From Phyllobates terribilis (taxonomy: Eukaryota): 64,000 bases of DNA. Both the position numbers and the translations under genes were made by a program. Below the pieces are notes generated by a model that did no database searches, was not told the origin of the DNA, and saw only the letters and a program-made list of their open reading frames with translations. This document shows positions 37,210 to 61,655 of this stretch, piece after piece. The stretch is taken from NCBI RefSeq assembly GCF_046119375.1, contig NW_027362771.1:261206001-261270000 (forward strand). Direction: 5' to 3'. The first letter of the stretch is position 1; each line of letters starts with the position of its first letter.

Positions 37210-37989
37210 AGGGAATCTATCAGCAGGCTTTCCTATGTAATCCCAAAGAAGCATGATGTAGGGACAGAGACCCTAATTCCAGCGATTAGTTTACTGGGTG
37301 CAGCAGTTGCAATAGAATCTGTTTTCTCTACTGCAGATCTGGTAGAGGACAGAATGTTGAGCCCTGTATAACCCGCCCACACCACTGACTGGTCAGAATG
37401 CTGAGCCCTGTATAACCCCGCCCACACCACTGACTGGTCAGAATGCTGAGCCCTGTATAACCCTGCCCACACCACTGATTAGTTAGAATGCTGAGCCCTG
37501 TATAACCCCACCCACACCACTGACTGGTCAGAATGCTGAGCCCTGTATAACCCCGCCCACACCACTGATTGGTTAGAATGCTGAGCCCTGTATAACTCCG
37601 CCCACTCCACTGACTAGTCAGAATGCTGAGCTCTGTATAACCCCGCCCACACCACTGATTGGTTAGAATGCTGAGCCCTGTATAACCCCACCCACACCAC
37701 TGACTGGTCAGAATGCTGAGCTCTGTATAACCCCACCCACACCACTGATTGGCAGCTTTCTGTGTACAATGTATATTGACAAAAAGCTGCTAATCAGTGG
37801 TTTGGGTGTGGTTGGACCATGAGGCACAAGACACCTATTCCTCTAGTAACAATCTCCTGCTGATAAAACTGATTTTATTGAAATGGCAAAACACAGCCTA
37901 GTATGTGACAAATCTGTGGAATCAGGATCTCTGCCACTATAAAATGCGGCTCTCAGATTACATAACAAAAACCTGCTGACATATTCCCT
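37210..37989. mobile_element. Kolobok/T2-type MITE carrying a minisatellite
   Basis: TTAA|AGGGAATCTATCAGCAGG ... CCTGCTGACATATTCCCT|TTAA. Confidence 0.85.
37351..37752. repeat. 45-bp minisatellite, 9 copies
   Basis: Unit AGAATGCTGAGCCCTGTATAACCCCGCCCACACCACTGA(C/T)TGGT(C/T), starting at 37351, 37395, 37440, 37485, 37530, 37575, 37620, 37665 and 37710. Confidence 0.97.
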
Positions 37990-44168: not shown

Positions 44169-44442
44169 GGAAAAGAAGATGTTGGGGTATTACAGCTCCT
44201 GGTAAAAAATAACTTTTATTCCATATTAATAGCAAAAATTTGAGCCAAAGTAATGAGACAGAAAGTGACGCGTTTCGAACGGATTCCAACGTTCTTTGTC
44301 AAAGCCTTTGACAAAGAATGTTGGAATACGTTCAAAACGCATCGCACTCTGTCCCTTTACTTTGGATGTCATTTTCATTACTAATATGGAATTAAAATGA
44401 TTTTTTTACAAGGAGCTGGAATACCCCAACATTTTCTTTTCC
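44169..44442. repeat. Penelope-type fold-back element with a variant hammerhead motif in each arm
   Basis: ~135-bp inverted arms with centre TTTGTCAAAG-C-CTTTGACAAA. The minus strand reads TTGACAA-A-GAACG-TTGGAATC-CGTTC-GAAA-CGCG-TC. Confidence 0.75.
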
Positions 44443-46143
44443 TATTTCTACATGAATGATCGAATTGTGCTTTCTGTGCATACTGGACTACAGTCACTAG
44501 TCAGCTGGAATATTGCCTTTTTATCCAATACTGGAGCATCACAAGTAGAGGCATTTGGAGCTAGGTGTCAGGTGCAGCAATTAAACTCGAGGTGGGGAGG
44601 TGTGGAAACTGAGCGCCTGGTACATCTGATCACATGCTCCTCCCGCTGTGAATGTCGTAACAACTTTTAATAAATCTCATAACATCATTCATACATTTTT
44701 TCACAAGCATTGGCGTATTTTGAACAGAGACCCAACTTTGGGTCACCTCCTAGCTATTAAACCACACATCCTTTAGGAACGCTCATAATTTGCATAACAT
44801 CATTTCACCAAGCAGACTAAAAATTAGGAAAGGCATACTCACCACATCTAATATAAGAAAGGGGAGTTTTAAGTGCTATACAAATAAATGACTTTGCTGT
44901 AGAACAATTAAGAACAATAGTCTACATTTCACCTTCCCTTGTAAGGGAGAGTCCTTTAAATGTTATTTGAATTGTAAATTAAATTATATTTCTCATAAAA
45001 TGTATATGTAAAAAAAAATTATGTTCTTAGAACCATCCAACACCTACATTAAAGACTGAAAAAAAAAATGATCTAACATAAAAAAGGATATCGTAAACAT
45101 GGCTTATCTTACCATAATGCAATCGAACACAAAGGTGATTTGGGTTCTTTTCAAATCTTTTCTAATAATTGGATTCCGAGCAACATCCCAAATAGGTTCA
45201 AAGCCCTGCAGAAAAGAGATGTTTTGGATCTACTGTTTGGTAGACCTCTTGATTAGAGATGAGCGTTCGCCAATCTCAAATTCGAGCTGTTTTGGGCGGT
45301 GTTCGAGCGGTTCGGCGAACACGAACGATTTGAAAAAAATTCGGCTGTTCGAGGTTATGTTCGATAACCAAAATCATGACTGGATTTTTTCTCAGTAATG
45401 ATGAAAATTAATGTTAATACGCAGTTTGAGTGTACAGCGGGGCGGGGGGAGGGGCATGGGATGGATCTCTGCAGGAATAATGAAGATCTCCATTTTTTTT
45501 TTTCTCTTTCCCACATTTACAGTGGGGAGGTGTAATCTGTCAGCCTATCAGCAGCGCACACACGGAGCGAAGTGCTTTTTTTCACACAAGCAAGGGCATG
45601 TGTCATTGGCAGTGTATGTCACATGTCCTTGCCCTATAAGACCCAGCCATTTTCCCCGTCGCCACCATTTTCTCACTGCTGCAGCTGCGTGTTAGACGGC
45701 ACCGCTGTTGCTGTGTGCGCTATACCTTGTTAATTTCAAGCCAATTTTCGCACAAATCTACAGATAGCTTGGGAGTAGGGAATAGTTGTGATTGCAGTCC
45801 TTTTAAGGACTAGGTTACAGCATTTCCTACGACTTTTATCAGGCAGGTCTGTGCTCTTGAATAGATATGTTGTGGGAGTAAAGACTAATTGTAATTGCAG
45901 TCCTTTTCAGGACTAAGTTACATCAGTTCCTATCAGTTTTTGCCAGGCACGTCTGTGCCAGTGCTGTGCAAGTTTTTTTCACAGCATTTGGCTAAATCTA
46001 GCAAAGCTAATCCTTTTTGGCCTATTGCAGAGTGTGTTAGTCAGTGGAGTAGCCTATCTGTGCTGCAAGCTACACCACCTGTGTACAGAATACCAATTTT
46101 TTTACTGCACCTAGTGAAGTAAAACCTTTTGGGCATAGCATCA

Positions 46144-48097
46144 TTCTATTAGTCCATCTATACTGACCTCCATAAGGTTGCAAATTGAATATAATTTTTT
46201 TCTGCATCTAGCTCTGAAAAAATATTTGGCCTTCTAGCTGTGTGTGGGACTTGTTCTATTAGTCCATCTATACTGACCTCCATCAGGTTGCAAACTGAAT
46301 ATATTTTTTTCTGCATCTACCTCTGAAAAAATATTTGGGCTTCTAGCTGTGTGTGGGACTTGTTCTATTAGTCCATCTATACTGACCTCCATCAGGTTGC
46401 AAATTGAATATAATTTTTTTCTGCATCTAGCTCTGAAAAAATATTTGGCCTTCTAGCAGTCTGTGGGACTTGTTCTATTAGTCCATCTATACTGACCTCC
46501 ATCAGGTTGCAAATTCAAAATAATTTTTTGTCTGCATCTAGCTCTGAAAAAATATTTGGCCTTCTAGCAGTGTGTGGGACTTGTTCTATTAGTCCATCTA
46601 TACTGACCTCCATCAGGTTGCAGATTAAAAATAATTTTTATCTGCATCTAGCTCTGAAAAAATATTTGGCCTTCTAGCAGTGTGTGGGACTTGTTCTATT
46701 AGTCCATCTATACTGACCTCCATCAGGTTGCAAATTAAAAATAATTTTTATCTGCATCTAGCTCTGAAAAAATATTTGGCCTTCTAGCAGTGTGTGGGGC
46801 TTGTTCTATTAGTCCATCTATACTGACCTCCATCAGGTTGCAAACTGAATATAATTTTTTTCTGCATCTACCTCTGGAAAAATATTTGGGCTTCTAGCTG
46901 TGTGTGGGACTTGTTATATTAGTCCATCTATACTGACCTCCATCAGGTTGCAAATTGAATATAATATTTTTCTGCATCTAGCTCTGAAAAAATATTTGGC
47001 CTTCTAGCAGTGTGTGGGACTTGTTCTATTAGTCCATCTATACTGACCTCCATCAGGTTGCAAACTGAATATAATTTTTTTTCTGCATCTACCTCTGAAA
47101 AAATATTTGGGCTTCTAGCTGTGTGTGGGACTTGTTCTATTAGTCCATCTATACTGACCTCCATCAGGTTGCAAATTCAAAATAATTTTTTGTCTGCATC
47201 TAGCTCTGAAAAAAATATTTGGCCTTCTAGCAGTGTGTGGGACTTGTTCTATTAGTCCATCTATACTGACCTCCATCAGGTTGCAAATTCAAAATAATTT
47301 TCATCTGCATCTAGCTCTGAAAAAATATTTGGCCTTCTAGCAGTGTGTGGGACTTGTTCTATTAGTCCATCTATACTGACCTCCATCAGGTTGCAAATTG
47401 AATATAATATTTTTCTGCATCTAGCTCTGAAAAAATATTTGGCCTTCTAGCAGTGTGTGGGACTTGTTCTATTAGTCCATCTATACTGACCTCCATCAGG
47501 TTGCAAACTGAATATAATTTTTTTTCTGCATCTACCTCTGAAAAAATATTTGGGCTTCTAGCTGTGTGTGGGACTTGTTCTATTAGTCCATCTATACTGA
47601 CCTCCATCAGGTTGCAAATTCAAAATAATTTTTTGTCTGCATCTAGCTCTGAAAAAAATATTTGGCCTTCTAGCAGTGTGTGGGACTTGTTCTATTAGTC
47701 CATCTATACTGACCTCCATCAGGTTGCAAACTGAATATAATTTTTTTCTGCATCTAGCTCTGAAAAAATATTTGGCCTTCTAGCAGTGTGTGGGACTTGT
47801 TCTATTAGTCCATCTATACTGACCTCCATCAGGTTGCAAATTAAAAATAATTTTTATCTGCATCTAGCTCTGAAAAAATATTTGGCTTTCTAGCAGTGTG
47901 TGGGACTTGTTCTATTAGTCCATCTATACTGACCTCCATCAGGTTGCAAGCTGAATATAATTTTTTTCTGCATCTACCTCTGAAAAAATATTTGGCCTTC
48001 TAGCAGTGTGTGGGACTCATTGTATTAGGTTATCTATACCAAGCTCCACCAGCTTTTAAATTAATAATAATTTTTAGCAGCATCTAGCCCTGAAAAG
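46144..48097. repeat. ~110-bp tandem array, 17 full copies plus 1 diverged copy, inside the hAT
   Basis: Unit TTCTATTAGTCCATCTATACTGACCTCCATCAGGTTGCAAA..TCTGCATCTAGCTCTGAAAAAATATTTGGCCTTCTAGCAGTGTGTGGGACTTG, with period 109-112 bp. Confidence 0.97.
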
Positions 48098-48099
48098 AA

Positions 48100-48435
48100 T
48101 TTTTCTTCCCAATAGTGGTAGCAATAGAAATATGGGGCGCGCTCCTGGCTTACAAAAATATACGCTTCATAACAAAAAACACCAGCCTAGCGCACTGCAT
48201 TAATAAGATGGCATCATCGTCTCTCCCAGTGCTAGGCCTACTACCCAGGCTAGCATTCCTGTGCCTAAAACACAATGTATGGGTCCGCGCTAGCCACTAT
48301 GTTGAGGGGTCTAAAGCTGCTGCTAACGCTTTATAACAATTCAATTGGCAGATTTTCACAGAGCTCTTCCACAACGCCCACCCATCGGGCAACAGTTGCC
48401 CACCTTCCCTATGGGATCTAGTGGCGAATAGTTGA
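48100..48435 (+). pseudogene. Ngaro/DIRS-type RNase H C-terminal fragment
   Basis: FPIVVAIEIWG...INKMASSSLPVLGLL...LKHNVWVRASH..G....ANAL*QF.W...CPPSLWDLVANS*. The stop overlaps the recombinase ATG (TGATG). Confidence 0.85.
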
Positions 48436-49313
48436 TGCCATTAATCAGAGCGTCAGTTGCCCCGTCGACGTGGCAAGCATACGGTAAGGCATGGGAAGAG
48501 TGGACACGACTAGTAGCAGGCAGACGGGTTGACCAATGTGAACAAGCCAGATCACAAGTCACCATAGAATTTCTCCACCAGCTAATGATGAGGGGCATAT
48601 CAGGGGCGTCAGCGCAGCGGTGTCTGACCGGAGTAGCATTTCACTTCCAACTACTGAATTGGGGAGATGTGACAAAGATTCATCATCAGACAATCCATAA
48701 AAGGGTGGAAAAGGGGTCAGCCAAGTCAGGAGTGTAGACGTCCCGTCCCGTGTCACTAAAACTGATTTCTCACATCATATCCCTAACACTATTAACATGA
48801 CACTCACAAGCAACACTACTGTCTACTGCATTTGTGATCGCCTTCTTCGGGGCGCTATGCATAAGCGAATTAGTCCCTCAATCCAAAATTACCACCAGTG
48901 GAGGCTTATTACACCAGGACGTAGTCATAGCCAATAATGCAATACGTCTACGCATACACAAATTGAAAACGGTCCCAGCGGGCAGGGGCACTTGGGTACT
49001 TTTACAACCCACAAACGGTACACTGAGTCGGGTAACAATAGTAAAAACATATCTAACCATCAGATCACAAAGTAATTTCTTCCTATCACACATTGATGGA
49101 ACGCCATTATCAAGATACCAGTTCCAAGCTATATTTAATAAATGCATAACATCGGCAGGGAACCACCCCAAAGATTACGGGACACACTCATTCTGCATAG
49201 GCGCGGCCACAGAAGCAGCAAGAGCAGGACTGTCAGAAACGGAAGTTCAGAGGATAGGGAGATGGCGATCCACGTGTTTGGCAAGATACATAAGACCGGA
49301 CTTGTTATCCTAA
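48435..49313 (+). pseudogene. Tyrosine recombinase of an Ngaro-type YR retrotransposon (frameshifted)
   Basis: SVAPSTWQAYGKAW...; AFFGAL[C]ISELV; HKLKT; YGTHSF[C]IGAATEAA; IGRWRS...RYIRP. Both catalytic Arg codons appear as TGC. Confidence 0.9.
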
Positions 49314-49334
49314 CGTGGTTTGTTTCTTTTACAG

Positions 49335-49963
49335 GTGACGCTAAGCCAACAGTGTGGGTGATAGGCCACTCGTATATATGTTGGGCAGAAAAAAGGGCGA
49401 AAGTCCGCCCAGGCGGGAGGAAATTAGAGTTTCATAACACATATTTCAACTGGAGAGGTATTAGAGGCCTGCTATGGCCACAGGTACTAATGGAGGTAAT
49501 CAAGGTAGGGAGAGAGGCAAGATGTCCGGTCATCTTAGTTATACAGGCCGGGGGAAACAACCTAGGTCATTACAAGAGCGCATAACTAATGGCAATAATG
49601 AAACTAGACACTGAGCGCTTCAGAGAGTTTTTCACAAAACTAGCTATAGTATGGTCAGAGATTGTGCCGATAGCGGTATGGCAAGGTGCGCGAGACATTA
49701 CGGCCATCGAACGGACAAGGCGGGTAATAAATATTCGGATGGCAAAATTTAGAAGAGACAGAGGTGGTGTAGTGGTACGACACCAACAACTGGAAGGAGA
49801 TAAAGCAGGCCTCATACGGCCCTACGGTGTTCACTTAATGGATATTGGACTGGACATATTCCTGTCAGGACTCCATGACAGAGTGGAACAAGCGTTAAGA
49901 GTGATGGGTGGGGGTCAGAGTCCTGCATTCGAGTGCGCAGGATCCTCCGTGGCCTGGAAATAG
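49335..49963 (+). pseudogene. SGNH/GDSL-type hydrolase ORF of Ngaro element (one in-frame stop)
   Basis: Block I VWVIGHSY, block III IQAGGNNL and block V RPYGVHL. TAA at 49583-49585 is in the same frame as the downstream ORF. Confidence 0.85.
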
Positions 49964-52028
49964 AAAGGACATGTTGGAGAGTTACACTTGTTGGCCAAGT
50001 TGCCGGAGTGGAGACCCAGGGCATGCTGCAACAAGCTGAATTATTTTAGAAGTAAAATGCCTTTCTAATGGAATGAGTATAAAGAGTTAATAAAGCTGTG
50101 ACCGATCCTCACCCATCCAGTTGTAAGAGTTACATTATTGTATTGTCAAGGAAAGGGGGGCGCTAGGGGGGCTGAGCGTCTGGGTTTGGTTGGGGGTCCC
50201 CACAGTCTGCCTAGGCTAGATGCATTTAAAAATTCTTATTAGATGCACAGGCGGTGCAGCTTGCTTCGCAGCTGGGCTGCCACGCCCAAAGTATTGCCTA
50301 GGCTAGATGCAGTTAAAAATTCTACGCTGACTAGCAGACACGGAAGATTTGGAGCAGACCTCTGAGTAAACAGCTCTTCAGACTCAACCATCTGTGTTAC
50401 CCCAAGCCATAGTGTATGTAGTTTCTTACAGTTAAAAGGGGGGGGGAGCGACCCAACCCACCTGTAATTGACGATGCCAACGTCACGTAAGACACAGCAA
50501 GGGGACTCCAAAAAGAGTCTCCATTTTTTCCCAAAATTGTGGCACAGACACCACTTAACCCTAGAACGCATACCTGGGGCCTCGCAGTCCCGCCCTGTTA
50601 ATTGTTTTCTATTTTCTGCAAGATTACTTTAGTTAGAATTTTGAAAATCTAGGTATTCTTCATGTATATAGTTGTTTGTCATTTGAGTTTGAGTTATTCC
50701 ATGTTATTTGCACACGGGCCTAAAAGGCCCCAGGTATATGAAAGTGTAGATTTTTATGGTCATGTGTTCTAGAGTTAAGTGGCATCAATTGCCTGACAGT
50801 TGCTTAAAACGGTTGGTGAGGTGATATTACCAAATCCTCAAGCTTTTAGTCTCCCAAGGATAACACAGGGTTAGAAAAGTCCTTGCGAATCCATGATTTG
50901 TTCATCTTTATGAACGTGAGTCTGTCTACATACTCAGTGGACAGCCGCATGCGCTTATCTGTCAGCACACCATCAGCAGCGCTGAACACACGTTCAGAGA
51001 GAACACTGGCTGCAGGGCATGACAAGATCTCCAAGGCGTGAGTGGCGAGCTCCGGCCATTTTTCCAGATTGGAATACCAAAATGAGCAAGGGACCAGTGA
51101 CACAGTCATGGCTTCGATGTTCACTTGGAGACACTCCTGCACCATCCTCTCTAGGCATTGACTATGTGTCAGACTTCTTGTCTCCTGTGGCCTTGCAAAG
51201 GATGGTCTAAAAAAGTGGTGAAACGATTCCACAAAATTGCTGTTACCAGCAGATACTGTGTTACTGTTACGGTTTGAGTGATGAAGACTCGACAGTCCCA
51301 CGGTTGGCAAGTTAGAACTGTGAGATTCACTTCGTGCACCACTGGTGTTTTGTGGAAAAGCACATGTAAGATTCTGCAACAGCGTCTGCAGATACTCCTG
51401 CATGCGTCAATCCCTTTTTATGGCAGGAATTATTTTGGCAAATTTACTTTTGTATCGGGGATCTAAGAGTGTGGCAACCCAGTAGTCGGGATTACTTCGA
51501 ATTCTGCAATCTGAGGGTCGGTCATGTTGCAGGTAGTGCAGCAAGAAGGCACTCATGTGTCTTGCGCATCCAGGAGGACCAAGTCCTTGTTGTGTTGGTA
51601 GCGAGGTAAGAATCATGCTTCCTTCCTCTGCCCTCTCCCCCCAACCTCGCACAACAGAAATGTGATCAAGGTCTCCCTCATCTGATGAGTCTTCCATGCC
51701 CATCGCCAGTTCATCCTCCACTTCTTCCTCGGCTCCTGCACCTTCCTCAACAGTTTGGCTGCTACCATGCGCCCTGGTTAATCGCTCTCCCCCACCCTCC
51801 CATGCCTGCCGCCTTGGTGCTGCCAACCGTCTGGACCTTGGAGATGTTATCCCTTCCGCATACGACTCCTCCTCTACTTCCTCCACCTCCTCTTGTCCCA
51901 CCACCTGACTCTGAATTCTGTTTAATGTGTGCTCCAGCATGTAAATCACAGGAATAGTCATGCTGATAATGGCATCGTCGTCAGCACTAAACATCTTCGT
52001 CGCCATTTCAAAACTGTGCAGAAGGGGG

Positions 52029-53212
52029 TGTGGCGCCCCTGAGGGTTCAGTCTCCACAGAGGTACTGCATCTCACCCAGAGGTGTGGTATCTCACCCTCT
52101 GGTAAGGAAGGCGTATGGCTCGGGACCCTAACACCTGCATCCAACACATACCCGCAGTGGGGGTAGGGCGAGATTGCTCCTAAGGGAGAGCACAGTCCCA
52201 GGTCCCTAGCTGGTGGGAGGGTCCTATGTAGTGGGTGCTTAGGGGAGCAGCTTAGGGGAGCACATGACAGGGAGAGTATAAATAGGAAGCCATCTTAGAA
52301 AGAGCAAGCCAGTCAGAGGAGGAAAAGTGACAGGAGCAGAGGCTCGGCATGAGCTCTGCTCCGTAGGCGGGCCTAGCCTGGGAGGCCCAGGACTGAAGGA
52401 GAGAAGAGACGAGTGGGAGCAGGAAGGCTCCAGGAACCGAAGGGACCCTAGGGCTACGGGCCGTGCAGAAGGCCACCCGTACTCCCGCTGCTACCAGGAG
52501 GTAGAGGGGTCAGGCCAGATAAGGGGAACCGGTCCCTCAACTAGAGGAGAAACAGCAAGGCTCAACTAGAAACCGGAGGCTGCAGCATTTCATGTACTGC
52601 AGGCAAAAGTCCACACCAGTCTCACTAAGAAGGTAGCCACATAGGACCCAGGGGACGGAACACAAGTCGCCCGCCAAGGCCCGAAGATACCGGATAGAAG
52701 TGTCACTGGGTGTGAGGTGCAGGGAGAAGGCCAGAGAAAGGACACACAGAAGCGGGTCCTGCTAAGTACTCCGGAGCTATCTGGGGGTGGACTGAGCCCC
52801 TCACTGAGTACGCACAGCACGACGGGTGAGATTGCTCTGGTACCTGTAATCTGGACTGCAACAACTGTGAGTAAAGATCTTGGGACTGCATCACACGGAC
52901 TCTGTGTTCATTACTGACTCCCTGCACTGCAACCACCATCATCCACCCACACTGCCCTGAAGCTACACTCTTCCTGTGGTGAGTAATAATACCATTGCTG
53001 CAAAACCACCAGCTTCAGAGGACTGTTCCGCAGCAGCGGTCCCTTTGGCCGCACTCCACAGGTGGCATAGTCGGACATTATAAAATCCATATATACAAAT
53101 TACCGTTGGATTGACCGCCCTGGGTCACGGACCGGGTCACCGCCACAGTGACTACAACCCCCAGCGTCTACCGGCACGGCTCAGGGTACCCCGCGGCCCA
53201 GGGGGCGCGTCA
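52029..53212 (+). mobile_element. LTR-like element 1 (1184 bp; probable Gypsy-type solo LTR) inserted in the hAT transposase
   Basis: Termini TGTGGCGCCCCTG ... CAGGGGGCGCGTCA (imperfect inverted). TATAAATA at 52277 and AGTAAA at ~52868. Transposase sequence resumes on both sides. No TSD recognised. Confidence 0.75.
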
Positions 53213-54957
53213 ACTTCATAGGTCCCTGATCTGAGACCTCTCCTGCAGCGTGATTTGCCCCACCTCTGGATCTCGTTGGCCCAGGCTATACGTCAGAACG
53301 TATTGCACCAGGGCTTGTCGGTGCTGCCACAGTCGCTGCAACATGTGCAGAGTTGAATTCCACCGTGTCGGCACATCGCATTTCAGCCGGTGAACTGGCA
53401 GGCCCAACGACTTCTGTAGAGATGTAAGTCGTTGAGCTGCGGGATGCGAATGGCGGAAGTGAGCACACAGCGACCGTGCCCTCTGCAGAAGGCCATCTAG
53501 TCGGGGATAGTGGGCTAAAAATTTATGGACAACCAGGTTCAACACGTGAGCCATACAAGGCACGTGTGTGACATTGCACCGGCGAAGAGCCGCACCCAGG
53601 TTTGCAGCATTGTCGCACACGGCCTTCCCTGGTTGCAGGTCCAGTGGAGACAACCATTCATGAAACTGGGTCTCCAGAGCTGACCACAATGCCTCAGCTG
53701 TGTGACTCACATTTCCCAGACATTTCAAAGTAAACACTGATGCCGTTGAGCCCTGCTGCCAGCATAGTAAGGAGGTGTGCAGGATTCCTTCTGCGCAGTT
53801 AGAAAGCAGGTGGCATTACAAGACAGGCTTTGGGTGCAGGTGGAGGACCGAGAGGAGGTTGAGGAGGCTGAAGCAGTGGAGGAACTTCGAGATAAAGAGG
53901 ATTGACGCAAGACTCGTGGGGACGGTAAGACTTGGACAGCAGCCCCTTGTCCTGCTGTCACCATAGTTACCCAGTGCCCAGTCAGCGACATGTAACGCCC
54001 CTGTCCATGCCTACTCGTCCAAGTGTCTGTAGTGAAATGCACCCTGTCACACACAGAGTTTCTCAAAGAAGCGGTGATGTTGTGTGCGACATGCTGGTGG
54101 AGCGCAGGCACACCTTTCTTTGAGAAGTAGTGCCGACTGGGCATCTGGTACTGGGGCACTGCGACGGACATAAGGTCTCGAAAATCCACTGTGTCCTCCA
54201 GGCGGAAAGGCAGCATTTCTGTAGCCAACAGCTTGCAGATGGTGAAATTCAACCTCTTAGCTTTCTCATGGTTAGGAGGAAATGGTCTTTTACTTTTCCA
54301 CATCTGAGGGACTGGGGGCTGGCTGTTGTGCTTTGACGGGGTTGAGTAGGGTGTCCCTGGCAAACTGCCGGTCTGTGAGGAAGATGCAGGCGGACATGTT
54401 AGGTTGCCTTGATCCAAAGGTGGTGCTCTCGATGTCAGAGAGCGCTCAACACCAGCAGGTGTTTCCACTTCCCAATGAACTGACGACCTGCCAATCACAC
54501 TGGCTGTTGCAGGTAAAGAGGTGGCAGGTCTGCATCCAAAAACATGTGTGACTGCTGTCCCCCCAGTCACAGAGGATGAAGAGGCCGCGGATGCACAAGA
54601 TGGGGCAGACGGTGGTTGGCCCAGCCTGCTAGGCCGCATTGTAGCACAGTGAACTTCCCACTGCAACTTATGCTTCATATCCATGTGATGGTACATGCAT
54701 GAAGTACTCAAACTATGAATTTTTTGGCCTCTACTTAGCTTTTGGTGACAAATATTACAGATAACACGAGTTGGGTCATCCTTATCGATCTGAATAAATG
54801 CCCAGGCTATGCAAGGCTTAGAGCCCATGCGACCTGAAGAGCCACTACGACTTGTGGTCAGAGGCAGAGTTGTGGTTGAGGATGCAGTTGTTGACGTGCT
54901 TCCAGTACTCCGTCTCTGTCCAGGAAGGCGCAACCTAACCTCGTCGTCAATAGCATC

Positions 54958-56074
54958 TGTGACACCCCGCTGCGCTTGGTATCACAGATCCTAGAAGAGT
55001 GTATTGATGGAATCCTCCACAAGAGGCCCCCATAAACATTCACACATCTCCACCTTCCACCTCAGACCAGCAGAGGGAGCCCGTTAGGGATATAAATAGG
55101 GAAGGTGGAGCTAGGCAGTTCAGTTCCTCTGAAGAGTTCCTGCAGTAGAGAAGCCTAAGAGAGGTCAGTCTGCAGTGGAGCTCAGTCTAGTCTAGAGAAC
55201 TCAGTTAATAGTTCAGCAGTGGAGCACGAGGCTCCTGCTAGCTAGATTCAGGGAGCCCAGATAGAGCTTAAGGTGTGCCGGCGCCATAAGATCGGTGAAG
55301 CGCGGCAAGCTGCCGTTAGTGTGTATAGCCTAGTGAGGGCCCGAGTAGGCCGAAGGCGAGTGGCGAGTTAGTACATAAGGTGCAGAGAAGCTTAACCAGC
55401 TCACCCCGAAGCATTTACAGGACACCGGATCCGAGCTTACCGGGATCTCTATGACCCAGTAAGGCATAACTGGAATCCCTGGAGAACTACAATTCCCAGG
55501 ATCGCTGAGGTGCTAATACGTAACAGAGCCAGGAGACGCTTAGGCCCCTCATACTGGGAGCGTGAACTCCAAGAGAAGGCCCTACCACAAGGTCAGCCAG
55601 CGCAGGACAGAGACAAAGTTAGGCCTAGCTCCAGGCAGGTCAGAAACTTACTACGCAGAAGCAAGAAACAGGAGGCCCTACACCCACTCATTGGGGAGGA
55701 TCCTGATATGCACCCTTCACCCTACAGTGCTCCAGGATGTGCCTGAATTTCCTCCAGTAAAAGGTACTGAAGTGACTACCGTGTCCGTTCCCATTCTTGC
55801 TCTGACCCAGCTGGGTCTCGCCTGTCCTGCATTCCCCCTGCATACGCTGCCCTGAGACCTAGCTCCACCTGTGGGGAGCTATACCATCGAGCTGCCTTAT
55901 CACGGGCCTCAGTGGACTGCTGCAGCGCTGGTGCTTCTCACCAGATACCACAGGTGGCGTCACGAACTCTTATAAAATTAACAATTATCCACCCTTTTAA
56001 AGAGTGACCCCAGGGTACGGGCCAGGGAGCCGACCACCCAGACATCCCCAAGGCCAGGCAAAGGCCCGGGTGAC
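54958..56074 (+). mobile_element. LTR-like element 2 (~1117 bp) inserted in the hAT transposase
   Basis: Termini TGTGACACCCC ... CCCGGGTGAC. TATAAATA at 55091 and AGTAAA at ~55756. Same overall layout as element 1. No TSD recognised. Confidence 0.72.
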
Positions 56075-56736
56075 CTCATTGACTGGCTGACTGTGGGGTG
56101 ACAGTAAGTTGGATCTCCAACCTTGTCATCATCACCCTGTGTGTTATCACACCCTTCGTCCTTAAAGCCAACCTCTTCCTGCCCTGACCGAAAAGTCAAG
56201 TTGTCGCTCCAATCAGGTATTAGAGTCTCATCATCGTCTTCATCATTGTCTCCACCAACAGGAGTTACAGTTTGGGAACGAGGGTCTACATTATGCTCAG
56301 AACCTTCTTCATCTGGTCCTGGATCCGACTTATAAAGATTCTGGGCATCAGTGCAGATCATTTCCTCATCTGGATTAACAGAAGCTCTGGAGCAGACCTC
56401 CGTTTCCCAGGCTATAGTATGAGTAAACAGCTCTGCAGACTCAACCATCTGTGTTACCCCATACTCAGACGGGCAGCTGGAGACTTGGGAGCTGTGAGGA
56501 AGCAAGTGCGATAGGGGTGACACCTCTGAGGACTGGAGTATTTGTGATGTTGAAATTGAGGTGGAGGAGAGCCCACTTGAAGGAGCACTTGATATCCGCT
56601 GAAGCACCTGCTGTTTTTGTGCCTCATCTGGAATTTGTAGCGATGGGTGTGTCCGTAACAAAGGGATCGTATCACATTGTCCACGAAAAGAAGTCGACAT
56701 GTTAGTTTGGCGGGAAGATGGTCTTTCTTCTGCAGA

Positions 56737-56923
56737 TGTTACCCCCCCCCCACCGCGGGGGGGCTCGACCCACCAGCGGACAGGCACCAGTATTGGGAGA
56801 GGGGGGCTGGCTGTCAGGGTCCACCGCGGCTCTGGCACAAACCCGGCGACACGGAGGTGGCACGGGCAGGAACGGACTGGCCGTGTCGGCTTCTCACTTT
56901 TTGGATTTTAGAAGGGCATGACA
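56737..56923. mobile_element. Short TG..CA insertion (187 bp) at the transposase start codon
   Basis: TGTTACCCCCC ... GGGCATGACA. Removing it (keeping the terminal CA) restores ATG TCT GCA GAA GAA AGA on the minus strand. Confidence 0.55.
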
Positions 56924-57499
56924 TGCCTATATCTGTGTCTCCCCCTCCTTTTACTCCTCCACCTCTTTTATTTTCGCATGACTATATGTACTTGTCACTT
57001 TTCCATGTGTTAGTTATGTCTTCTGAGCAGTTTGTCAGCTTTTGGACACCTTTGAAGGTGTATCTATGTGTTTCTATGTGTTTTTGTTTGCCTGCCATTG
57101 GTTTTAACGGTGTTCGAAGGTGTTCGACGAACAGTTCGACGAACAGTTCGGCGAACACAAGGGTGTTCGACGAACCGAACTCGAACACTACGGGGGTGGC
57201 TCAACACTACTCTTGATCTCAATGAGGTGTCTGAACTAATTGTATATAGTGGTATATAGTGGTGCTTAAAAGTTTGTGAACCCTAGAAGAATTCTCCAAA
57301 TTTCTGCATAAGTTTGAATTAAAACTACCATCTATAACCTTCCATATGCTGATGACATTGAACATGTCCTATTCTGATCCTCAAAATCAGATCAGAACAG
57401 GACATTTTTTGACCCTCATGGATCTCATTCTCAGATCTGTGATTTTCACGGATGTGTGAATGGAACCAAAAAACTCTCCGAGTCCGTGTGCCGTCCAAT

Positions 57500-59428: not shown

Positions 59429-59470
59429 GTTGCTAAAGCGTCATCATTTTTTTCACTTTTAAAGAAAACC

Positions 59471-59721
59471 CAATCCTAACCCCAACCCTAACTCCAACCC
59501 CGAGCCCAACCCTAATACAACCCTAACCCTACACCTAAGCCTAACACAACCCTAAGCCTAACACAACCCTAAGCCTAACACAACCCTAACCCCAATCCTA
59601 AACCTAACCCTATTACAACCCTAACACTACCCCTAACATAATCCTGACCTAACCCTACCCTAACACCACACTAAGCCTAACCCTAACACAACCCAAAGCA
59701 AATCCTAATCCATAACCTAAC
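59471..59721. repeat. Degenerate (CCCTAA)n telomere-like tract
   Basis: Many CCCTAA/CCTAAC variants, including three consecutive copies of CCTAACACAACCCTAA(G). Confidence 0.85.
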
Positions 59722-60063: not shown

Positions 60064-61655
60064 CAGTGGGGGAAATAAGTATTTGATCCCTTGCTGTTTT
60101 TGTACGTTTGCCCACTGACAAAGACATGAACAGTTTATAATTTTAAGGGTAGGTTAATTTTAACATTGAGAGATAGAATATCCAAAACAAAACAAGAAAA
60201 TTACATTGTATAAATTAGATAATTTTTTTGCATTTTGCAGTGAGAAATAAGTATTTGATCCCCTACAAACCATTATGAGTTCTGGCTCCTACAGACCAGT
60301 TAGACGCTCCTAATCAATTCGTTACCTGCATTAAAGACAGCTGTTTTACATAGTCACCTGTATAAAAGACTCCTGTCCACAGACTCAATTAATCAATCAG
60401 ACTCTAACCGCTACAACATGGGCAAGACCAAAGAGCTTTCTAAGGATGTGAGGGACAAGATCATAGACCTGCACAAAGCTGGAGTGGGCTACAAAACAAT
60501 AAGTAAGACGCTGGGTGAGAAGGAGACAACTGTTGGTGCAATAGTTAGAAAATGGAAGAAATACAAATGACTGCCAATCGACATTGATCTGGGGCACCAT
60601 GCAAAATCTCACCTCATGGGGTATCCTTGATCATGAGGAAGGTGAGAGATCAGCCTAAAACTACACGGGGGAACTTGTTAATGATCTCAAGGCAGCTGGG
60701 ACCATAGTCACCAAGAAAACCATTGGTAACACATTAAGCCTTAAAGGTTTAAAATCCTGCAGTGCCCGCAAGGTCCCCCTGCTCAAGAAGGCACATGTGC
60801 AGGCCCGTCTGAAGTTTGCCAATGAACACCTGGATGATTCTGTGAGTTATTGTGAGAAGGTGCTGTGGTCAGATGAGACAAAAATTGAGCTCTTTGGCGT
60901 TAACTCAACTCGATGTGTTTGGAGGAAGAAGAAGGATGAGTACAACCCTAAGAACATTGTCGCAACCGTGAAGCATGGTGGGGGAAACATTATACTTTGG
61001 GGGTGCTTTTCTGCAAAGGGGACATGACGACTGCGCCGTACTGAAGGAAAGATGGATGGGGTCATGTATCGCGAGATTTTGGCCAATAACCTCCTTCCCT
61101 CAGTAAGAGCATTGAAGATGGGTCATGGCTGGGTCTTCCAACAAGACAATGACCCAAAACATACAGCCAAGGCAACAAAGGAGTGGCTCAAAAAGAAGCA
61201 CAGTAAGGTCATGGAGTGGCCTAGCCAGTCTCCAGACCTTAATCCCATAGAAAACTTATGGAGGGAGTTGAAGCTCTGAGTTTCCAAGCGACAGCCTCAA
61301 AATCTTAATGATTTAGAGATGATCTGCAAAGAGGAGTGGACCAAAATTCCTCCTGACATGTGCGCAAACTTCATCATCAACTACAAAAAACGTCTGACTG
61401 CCGTGCTTGCCAACAAGGGTTTTGCCATCAAGTATTAAGTGTTGTTTGCCAGAGTGATCAAATACTTATTTCTCACTGCAAAATGCAAAAAAAATTATCA
61501 AATTTATACAATGTGATTTTCTTGATTTTTTTTTTAGATATTCAATCTCTCAATGTTAAAATTAACCTACCCTTAAAATTATAGACTGTTCATGTCTTTG
61601 TCAGTGGGCAAACTTACAAAAACAGCAAGGGATCAAATACTTATTTCCCCCACTG
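60064..61655 (+). mobile_element. Full-length but defective Tc1 transposon (1592 bp)
   Basis: TA|CAGTGGGGGAAATAAGTATTTGATCCC ... GGGATCAAATACTTATTTCCCCCACTG|TA, with inner direct repeats at ~60246 and ~61455. Confidence 0.95.
60418..61438 (+). pseudogene. Tc1 transposase pseudogene
   Basis: [16 protein letters not shown]...WSDETK...FQQDNDPKH...SPDLNPIE...KGFAIKY* with frameshifts and internal stops. Confidence 0.92.

What the first reader, a model, noticed from the sequence alone, without database searches (positions are those of the whole stretch)
45254..57209. A 12-kb composite hAT transposon carrying a satellite array, an Ngaro YR-hydrolase module and three LTR-like inserts within one perfect TSD
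Seen in sequence: hAT-type TIRs with an exact 8-bp TSD (CTCTTGAT) bound a unit containing a 2-kb tandem array, a retroelement remnant (RNase H, YR, SGNH), a mosaic junction and a transposase gene broken at five or more places. The D, D, E, CxxH and RW motifs are still present. Inference: a perfect TSD around so decayed a transposase suggests this copy may have been mobilised in trans after acquiring at least part of its cargo. It would then be a Pack-type hAT that ferries other TEs. The alternative is that all insertions happened here after integration.
Basis: partly seen in the sequence, partly recalled or inferred. Interest (0 to 1): 0.7.

Follow-up and report, generated by a model that had tools for sequence, protein, structure and literature searches.

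The report
Cargo transposon that swaps its ends
This 12-kilobase stretch is one of at least 5,000 scattered copies of a broken cut-and-paste transposon that carries dead pieces of other mobile elements and holds its own gene backwards, likely gained that load step by step, and is likely moved by, and likely trades its ends with, an intact and far more numerous relative.

Summary
The composite moves as a unit; local nesting is refuted. Its junctions recur 2,968-5,364 times as exact matches in the 10.6-Gb genome, and 25 sampled independent copies each have their own perfect 8-bp target duplication. Corrections: the satellite is native to the hAT end; there are two solo LTRs, not three; a 220-bp TTAA insert was missed; the transposase is inverted relative to the ends and lacks its start. 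Still-present intermediates with their own duplications show stepwise assembly: uninverted Ngaro-bearing precursor, inverted LTR-free form, then LTRs and MITE. A sister family (at least 64,692 matches; 4 of 20 sampled have a full 1,233-aa frame) is the likely helper. Interiors of the two families are separate clades, but the left ends are intermixed (AU p 2.6e-6), so ends are exchanged. Precedents: Anolis hobo_AC and maize Mu heteromorphs. The scan found this family and its end swapping before on other DNA of this genome (e1-8659708). Added here: the precursor series, the inversion, LTR loss by conversion, and splice joints in the Ngaro piece in likely RNA runs. New variant of a known kind.

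The parts
45246..45253 (.). left copy of the 8-bp target-site duplication
   Evidence: identical to 57210-57217
45254..46143 (+). End A of the hAT (11-bp terminal repeat plus subterminal region); in autonomous copies this end lies upstream of the transposase start; this copy lacks about 17 bp near 45265
   Evidence: tree
46144..48104 (+). 110-bp tandem array, 17.8 units; native to End A, length varies between copies
48105..50204 (+). 3' half of an Ngaro-like YR retrotransposon: RNase H end, broken YR (48435-49313), broken hydrolase frame (49335-49963), 3' terminus; splice donor after 48483, acceptors at 49158 and 49334
   Evidence: 86% identical to a free copy L269; joints
50205..50554 (-). 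old 3' region of the parent hAT (degenerate array-like repeats and a short duplicate of transposase 56378-56461)
50555..50778 (.). 220-bp TTAA-flanked non-coding insert (piggyBac-like MITE; class label from recalled TTAA rule)
   Evidence: empty sites; joint skipping 220 bp
50846..56742 (-). hAT transposase remnant, residues 33-1233 of an intact relative, broken at five places, inverted relative to the ends
52029..53212 (+). solo-LTR-like insert 1 (TG...CA, 1,184 bp); the four bases after it do not repeat the target in any copy examined
   Evidence: junction count 3,694
54958..56070 (+). solo LTR 2; most family members keep its right end and a 4-bp target duplication, this lineage lost about 54 bp there
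   Evidence: free copies flanked by a primer-binding site or a purine tract; junction count 2,968
56730..56747 (.). right inversion breakpoint: truncated transposase 5' part joined to End B
   Evidence: junction count 5,364
56747..57209 (+). End B of the hAT; older subfamily holds an extra 815 bp at 56897 with a YR-retroelement RT fragment; outer part carries alleles of the young autonomous family
57210..57217 (.). right copy of the 8-bp target-site duplication

Best explanation
This is one copy of a non-autonomous hAT family of at least 5,000 dispersed members that moves as one 8-14 kb unit with dead transposon cargo, likely cut and pasted by the transposase of an intact sister family. Shown: dispersed copies share the cargo junctions and have different 8-bp target duplications; intermediates lacking each piece exist with their own duplications; the transposase is inverted and broken; left ends of composite and autonomous copies are phylogenetically intermixed while their interiors are separate. 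Inferred: the order of assembly (Ngaro insertion, inversion with loss of the start codon, LTRs, MITE, small deletions); that the sister family supplies the enzyme; that homologous exchange (conversion during gap repair, or nested insertion followed by deletion between arrays) swaps ends and sometimes erases cargo; direction mostly helper to composite.
For: Exact junction counts 2,968, 3,694, 4,976 and 5,364, reversed-pattern controls 0. Target duplications: 12 of 12 best-hit loci with both ends detected were 8/8, 8 independent; 12 of 20 position-ordered loci had both ends in reach, 8 perfect and 4 at 7/8; 8 of 10 and 8 of 10 further loci perfect; 0 of 812 cross pairs reach 7/8. Intermediates: uninverted L268 and L271, inverted LTR-free L263, L207 without LTR 2, MITE-free class. 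No composite keeps a frame over 790 aa (0 of 29). Sister family: 64,692 exact empty-site matches, 1,233-aa frame in 4 of 20, all five motifs in 2 of 20, ends about 2% from the window's class against 5-7% inside. End exchange: 6 of 29 composites carry 8-9 of 10 young-helper alleles in End A but at most 6 of 143 inside; composites are one side of a 98-support split in the transposase but rejected as a clade in End A, p 2.6e-6. LTR-1-free subfamily has helper alleles only right around the empty site (10 copies).
Against: No transposition or binding was measured. The helper assignment rests on shared ends, abundance and overlapping age (divergence 0.4% helper, 0.9% window class); older autonomous subfamilies exist and may have moved older classes. 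End A evidence is 10 diagnostic sites and End B only 5; the six-copy group was picked. Samples are 20-40 copies per class, mostly from the first 150 Mb of contig C1. Duplication pairs were found by a script that asks for at least 6-7 matches. Five best-hit loci share one flank, so some copies spread by segmental duplication, and a cluster at C1 438.8-440.0 Mb suggests the same. The inversion could be an internal flip or a nested reverse insertion followed by deletions; these were not separated.
Confidence: 0.88

Rival explanations
1. Simple local nesting: an hAT inserted here and other elements piled in afterwards.
For: Post-insertion nesting does occur in this family: several sampled copies hold private insertions, including autonomous copies.
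Against: Every cargo junction of the window copy recurs at other loci with different target duplications.
Confidence: 0.01
2. Copies spread mainly by segmental duplication or are assembly duplicates.
For: 5 of 20 best-hit loci share one flank and duplication; a dense cluster of hits on C1.
Against: 25 distinct perfect duplications among sampled loci; hits on all large contigs and both strands; the junction sequence is in contigs of independent runs.
Confidence: 0.02
3. The ends look alike only because transposase binding keeps them conserved; no exchange took place.
For: Ends of all classes are close (2-7%); terminal regions are expected to be constrained.
Against: Derived alleles are shared by young helper and a subset of composites at 8-9 of 10 sites spread over 800 bp, while older composites group with older autonomous copies; conversion patches also occur inside the transposase (L017, L133, LTR-1-free class).
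Confidence: 0.07
4. The composite is a dispersed antisense regulator of its helper: End A and both LTRs point against the inverted transposase, so it would make silencing RNA, like maize Mu killer (seen in search listing only).
For: Orientation; GT..AG joints on the + strand in the Ngaro piece in three likely RNA runs of two studies, not in three DNA-like runs.
Against: The joints lie 1.5 kb or more upstream of the transposase; the Ngaro piece ends with its own 3' terminus and a polyadenylation-like signal near 50090; no hairpin structure; the helper reached tens of thousands of copies. No stranded or small-RNA data.
Confidence: 0.12

Closest known systems
hobo_AC and its non-autonomous families, Anolis carolinensis (Novick et al., PMC3014272; passages of abstract, hAT section, Table 1 and discussion)
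   Same: hAT of 9-15 kb carrying fragments of other transposons, amplifying them as passengers; short TAGG-type terminal repeats, NT....AN targets; recombination between families that swaps 3' ends and termini.
   Different: There 25-290 long copies and non-autonomous families of 2-3.5 kb with 16-689 copies; here at least 5,000 non-autonomous copies of 8-14 kb beside at least 64,000 helper matches. There cargo was read as captured genomic DNA; here empty-site intermediates show insertion into the element. End exchange here is between non-autonomous and autonomous lineages, and the transposase is inverted.
Heteromorphic Mutator elements of maize (Hunter et al. 2023, PMC10401008; abstract and outline only)
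   Same: Separate trees for termini and interior; recombination gives elements new termini and they keep transposing.
   Different: MULE superfamily, long TIRs from divergent clades; here hAT subterminal regions only 1-7% apart.
Multicopy Pack-TIRs such as Pack-hAT-N8_XT (Tan et al. 2021, PMC8277862; passages)
   Same: A frog hAT moving foreign DNA to several loci, shown by distinct target duplications.
   Different: Cargo there is a 291-bp host-gene piece in three copies; here about 4.6 kb of transposon debris in thousands of copies and no host gene.
Amphibian Ngaro-like elements DIRS-53_XT / DIRS-54_XT (PMC9210276; passages)
   Same: Order RT/RNase H, YR, then an SGNH hydrolase frame; free copy L269 shows gag-like, RT, YR and hydrolase frames.
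   Different: Only the 3' 2.1 kb is in the composite, broken; split direct repeats were not found in the one free copy; the paper has no mention of splicing in its main text (0 hits).
Anuran 'ZBED4/6-like' hAT transposases; Xenopus hAT-10 (PMC9250109; passages)
   Same: Best database relatives of the helper protein are frog BED-hAT proteins, 37-52% identical over the core.
   Different: Identity to hAT-10 itself was not tested.

Membership tests
hAT superfamily | 8-bp target-site duplication | tested here: met
   window and 24 further independent loci perfect; chance control
hAT superfamily | short terminal inverted repeats | tested here: met
   11 bp, 9 of 11 complementary
hAT superfamily | transposase with BED finger, DDE core, CxxH, RW and dimerisation domain | tested here: met
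   Pfam PF02892 and PF05699 above cut-off; motifs (motif list recalled)
Ac family of hAT | target consensus nTnnnnAn (PMC8961557 passage) | tested here: met
   T at position 2 in 21 of 25 and A at position 7 in 21 of 25 perfect duplications, counted by eye
Ac family of hAT | transposase falls in the Ac clade | not tested
   no tree with reference transposases; database relatives are named ZBED4/6-like
non-autonomous hAT | no intact transposase, intact ends, autonomous partner with the same ends | tested here: met
   0 of 29 composites with a frame over 790 aa; partner with 1,233-aa frame and near-identical ends
non-autonomous hAT | mobilised by the partner's enzyme | not testable with these tools
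   needs an excision assay
Pack-TIR / Pack-MULE | carries a host-gene fragment whose parent lies outside a transposon | tested here: not met
   every internal piece maps to a transposon-derived sequence; it works like a Pack element but is not filed as one
Ngaro-like YR retrotransposon (cargo) | YR followed by an SGNH hydrolase frame | tested here: met
   YR Pfam hits; hydrolase region 56-58% identical to P0048, which carries PF13472; weak PF13472 hit in the free copy, E 0.002, below cut-off
Ngaro-like YR retrotransposon (cargo) | split direct repeats | tested here: inconclusive
   none found in the single free copy examined; 5' half absent from the composite
Ngaro-like YR retrotransposon (cargo) | RT phylogeny with Ngaro, no methyltransferase domain | not tested
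   no tree built
solo LTR (insert 2, 54958) | TG...CA ends, 4-bp duplication, relatives next to primer-binding site and purine tract | tested here: met
   11 of 17 position-ordered copies listed keep the right end and duplication; free relatives
solo LTR (insert 1, 52029) | TG...CA ends and matching target duplication | tested here: inconclusive
   ends fit; the four bases on the right do not repeat the target in any copy; no full-length parent was fetched

The most novel reading that the evidence does not exclude
A dead, cargo-laden transposon lineage stays mobile through several waves by repeatedly taking over the termini of whichever autonomous subfamily is currently active, with the shared tandem array acting as the crossover hinge, and these refreshed ends are favoured because they fit the current transposase. 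The genome would then hold a replicated, datable record of a non-autonomous element tracking its helper.
Probability: 0.3. Interest if true: 0.62.

Novelty: new variant of a known kind. Interest (0 to 1): 0.42.

Why it matters
About 8,000 copies of up to 12 kb (estimate; 60-100 Mb, 0.6-0.9% of the assembly if most are full length) mean that thousands of apparent Ngaro, LTR, MITE and satellite 'insertions' in this giant genome never moved by themselves, so repeat landscapes would credit retrotransposons with a DNA transposon's spread. The preserved intermediates and allele-marked end exchanges make a testable case of how non-autonomous elements keep pace with their helpers. The splice joints hint at how the amphibian Ngaro hydrolase frame, of unknown function, is expressed.

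Tried and rejected
Third LTR at 56735: rejected, it is End B. Array as cargo: rejected. Window-specific deletion at 48365 suggested: rejected, sequence is continuous in other copies. First junction count (52) used a private allele of this copy and undercounts; repeated. Search for a free Ngaro through the RT fragment of old End B found none in 30 of 1,266 hits; that fragment is only about 50% identical in protein to the free copy L269, so it comes from another family. Split direct repeats not found. No tRNA and no Rfam hit in the window. Run list: no RNA holder on record; X17 and X20 are guessed RNA and X14 is unlabelled, all contigs, so strand comes only from GT..AG and level is unknown. Low contig depth just past the Ngaro piece in those runs and the lack of MITE cover in organism C are holes in contigs and are not used as evidence. 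A scripted tally of target-site bases was not run; the tally given is by eye. Literature searches listed no paper describing this family or splicing of the amphibian Ngaro hydrolase; the library lacks most subscription papers and Repbase reports, and no supplement was read (Tables S1-S2 of PMC9210276 could bear on the Ngaro claims).
Full report
Observation. The element spans 45254-57209 with an exact 8-bp duplication on both sides. It lies in a 10.6-Gb genome (G000), downstream of an exon that matches reelin; relatives of its proteins are anuran, so a frog is likely. From left to right: End A, a 110-bp array of 17.8 units, 2.1 kb of a YR retroelement, old 3' sequence, a 220-bp TTAA-flanked insert, the transposase on the minus strand with two 1.1-1.2 kb inserts, and End B. 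Against a natural intact copy the transposase lacks its first 32 residues and has two insertions, a frameshift and a stop.

It moves as a unit. A search with the transposase middle returned 40 scored hits; of 29 fetched besides the window, 27 ran on through both LTR junctions. Exact patterns across single junctions occur 2,968 (LTR 2), 3,694 (LTR 1), 4,976 (array/Ngaro) and 5,364 (transposase/End B) times, with reversed controls at 0. Of 20 best-hit loci extended, 12 had both ends detected and all 12 had perfect duplications; five share one flank, leaving 8 independent. Of 20 loci taken by position on contig C1, 12 had both ends in reach: 8 perfect, 4 with 7 of 8; the other 8 were truncated, nested, cut by the stretch or fetched in the wrong orientation. 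Eight of 10 further loci were perfect and 8 of 10. No cross pair of 812 reaches 7 of 8. An Ngaro-internal pattern occurs 7,729 times and matches 14 of 16 copies picked by another junction; allowing for precursors and free copies this gives roughly 8,000 composites (estimate), mean length 11.9 kb among 29 bounded ones.

The likely helper. The uninterrupted transposase site occurs 64,692 times. In 20 sampled copies, 4 have a 1,233-aa frame and 2 keep all five motifs checked. Their order is End A, array, start codon, transposase, 3' cargo, End B; in the composite the transposase points the other way between the same ends. They carry cargo of their own: an LTR-like piece 69% like insert 1 and an 18S rRNA fragment. 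That this enzyme moves the composite is inferred from shared ends and overlapping age, not measured.

Order of assembly. Uninverted elements with a longer Ngaro piece, no LTRs and no MITE exist (L268, L271, each with a perfect duplication; L276 without); L263 is inverted but still LTR-free; L207 lacks LTR 2; a class at about 94% identity has both LTRs but no MITE and an extra 815 bp in End B that holds an RT fragment; later classes have the MITE, and the window's class has lost about 54 bp at the right end of LTR 2. Interiors of these classes form one clade apart from the helper. The order is inferred from nested presence and divergence (1.9-2.2% for older classes, 0.9% for the window's class). 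LTR 1 versus LTR 2 order is not settled. Contigs of organism B bridge the array/Ngaro and Ngaro/3' junctions and hold both MITE states.

Exchange with the helper. At 143 interior sites that separate young helper copies from older composites, most composites show 0-6 helper alleles. At 10 such sites in End A, six of 29 composites show 8-9; they belong to two interior lineages, so at least two transfers are likely. At 5 sites in End B the window's class has helper alleles at the outer three. In the End A tree those six sit inside a starred clade with the young helper (99/94), the oldest composites sit with the oldest autonomous copy (100/99), and holding composites together is rejected (p 2.6e-6); in the transposase middle the split is clean (98). 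Exchange is not confined to ends: one composite has a 10-allele helper patch, L133 switches to helper sequence near 51450, and an abundant subfamily lacking LTR 1 has helper alleles only beside the empty site (10 copies, 2-4 sites each), which suggests conversion erased the LTR. Whether refreshed ends are favoured is untested. I noted the end-swap idea before reading earlier notes.

Transcription hints. In runs X17 and X20 (one study, guessed RNA) and X14 (another study, unlabelled), contigs at 95% likeness or more join 48482 to 49158 or 49334 with GT..AG ends; the joints are absent from X1, X10 and X16. The 49334 join is in frame from the YR start into the hydrolase frame, and donor and acceptor are kept in 5 of 5 relatives checked, including the free copy. 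A 926-base contig of X14 runs from the array side through this donor into unrelated sequence. These point to + strand transcription, which is antisense to the inverted transposase further on, but nothing shows read-through. Earlier notes on molluscs report spliced Ngaro copies lying in DNA (e1-8652761), so DNA origin is not excluded.

Comparison. Anolis hobo_AC (PMC3014272, passages) already shows 9-15 kb hATs hauling transposon fragments and swapping termini by recombination; maize Mu heteromorphs (PMC10401008, abstract) show termini and interiors evolving apart; frog multicopy Pack-TIRs (PMC8277862, passages) show hAT transport of host DNA. This family works like these. It is an Ac-type non-autonomous hAT by ends and target pattern, not a Pack element in the strict sense. 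It differs in scale, in the inverted transposase and in the completeness of its intermediates. The same family and its end swapping were noted before in this scan on another piece of this genome.

Verdict. Real, a dispersed family, new variant of a known kind; interest 0.42. Limits: samples of 20-40 per class mostly from one contig arm, few diagnostic sites in the ends, no activity data, labels 'piggyBac-like', 'RNase H' and 'primer-binding site' rest on recalled motifs.

Noticed in passing
window 48483-49334; runs X14, X17, X20: GT..AG joints from one donor early in the Ngaro YR frame to two internal acceptors and to an outside sequence; the 49334 join is in frame with the hydrolase frame and the sites are kept in a free copy. 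Likely the expression route of the amphibian Ngaro hydrolase, and possible exonisation of the composite into another transcript.
   Followed up: partly
L147, L229 and G000 genome-wide: The autonomous sister hAT has at least 64,692 exact matches at one transposase site and carries its own cargo, including an 18S rRNA fragment (Rfam E 7e-20) and an LTR-like piece.
   Followed up: partly
window 53058-53078 and 55951-55967: Both LTR-like inserts hold a 13-14 base copy of a primer-binding-site-like motif about 120-150 bp inside their 3' end; in L269 the full motif follows the end of the insert-2-type LTR.
   Followed up: no
window 53213-53216: Four bases after LTR-like insert 1 do not repeat the target site in any copy; possibly the stub of the internal region left by a deletion.
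   Followed up: partly
L011-L014, L016; G000:C1 438.8-440.0 Mb: Composite or old End B copies multiplied inside larger duplicated units (same flank on five contigs; about 30 hits at 17-70 kb spacing on C1).
   Followed up: no
L133 (G000:C1 447-467 kb): Hybrid with the composite's left half, a helper-type transposase from about window 51450 onward and an End A-type region on both sides; no target duplication found.
   Followed up: partly
L005, L008, L022, L171, L177, L198, L201, L204, L210: Autonomous copies are often inserted into or abutting composites; partly expected from their abundance and from search bias.
   Followed up: no
window 60304-61440: Tc1/mariner-like transposase remnant downstream of the element (frames; label recalled).
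   Followed up: no
window 44169-44442: Long near-palindrome (101-bp arms, 80% complementary), probably a MITE.
   Followed up: no
window 59467-59699 and 37350-37752: Degenerate telomere-like repeat tract and a 45-bp x9 minisatellite.
   Followed up: no
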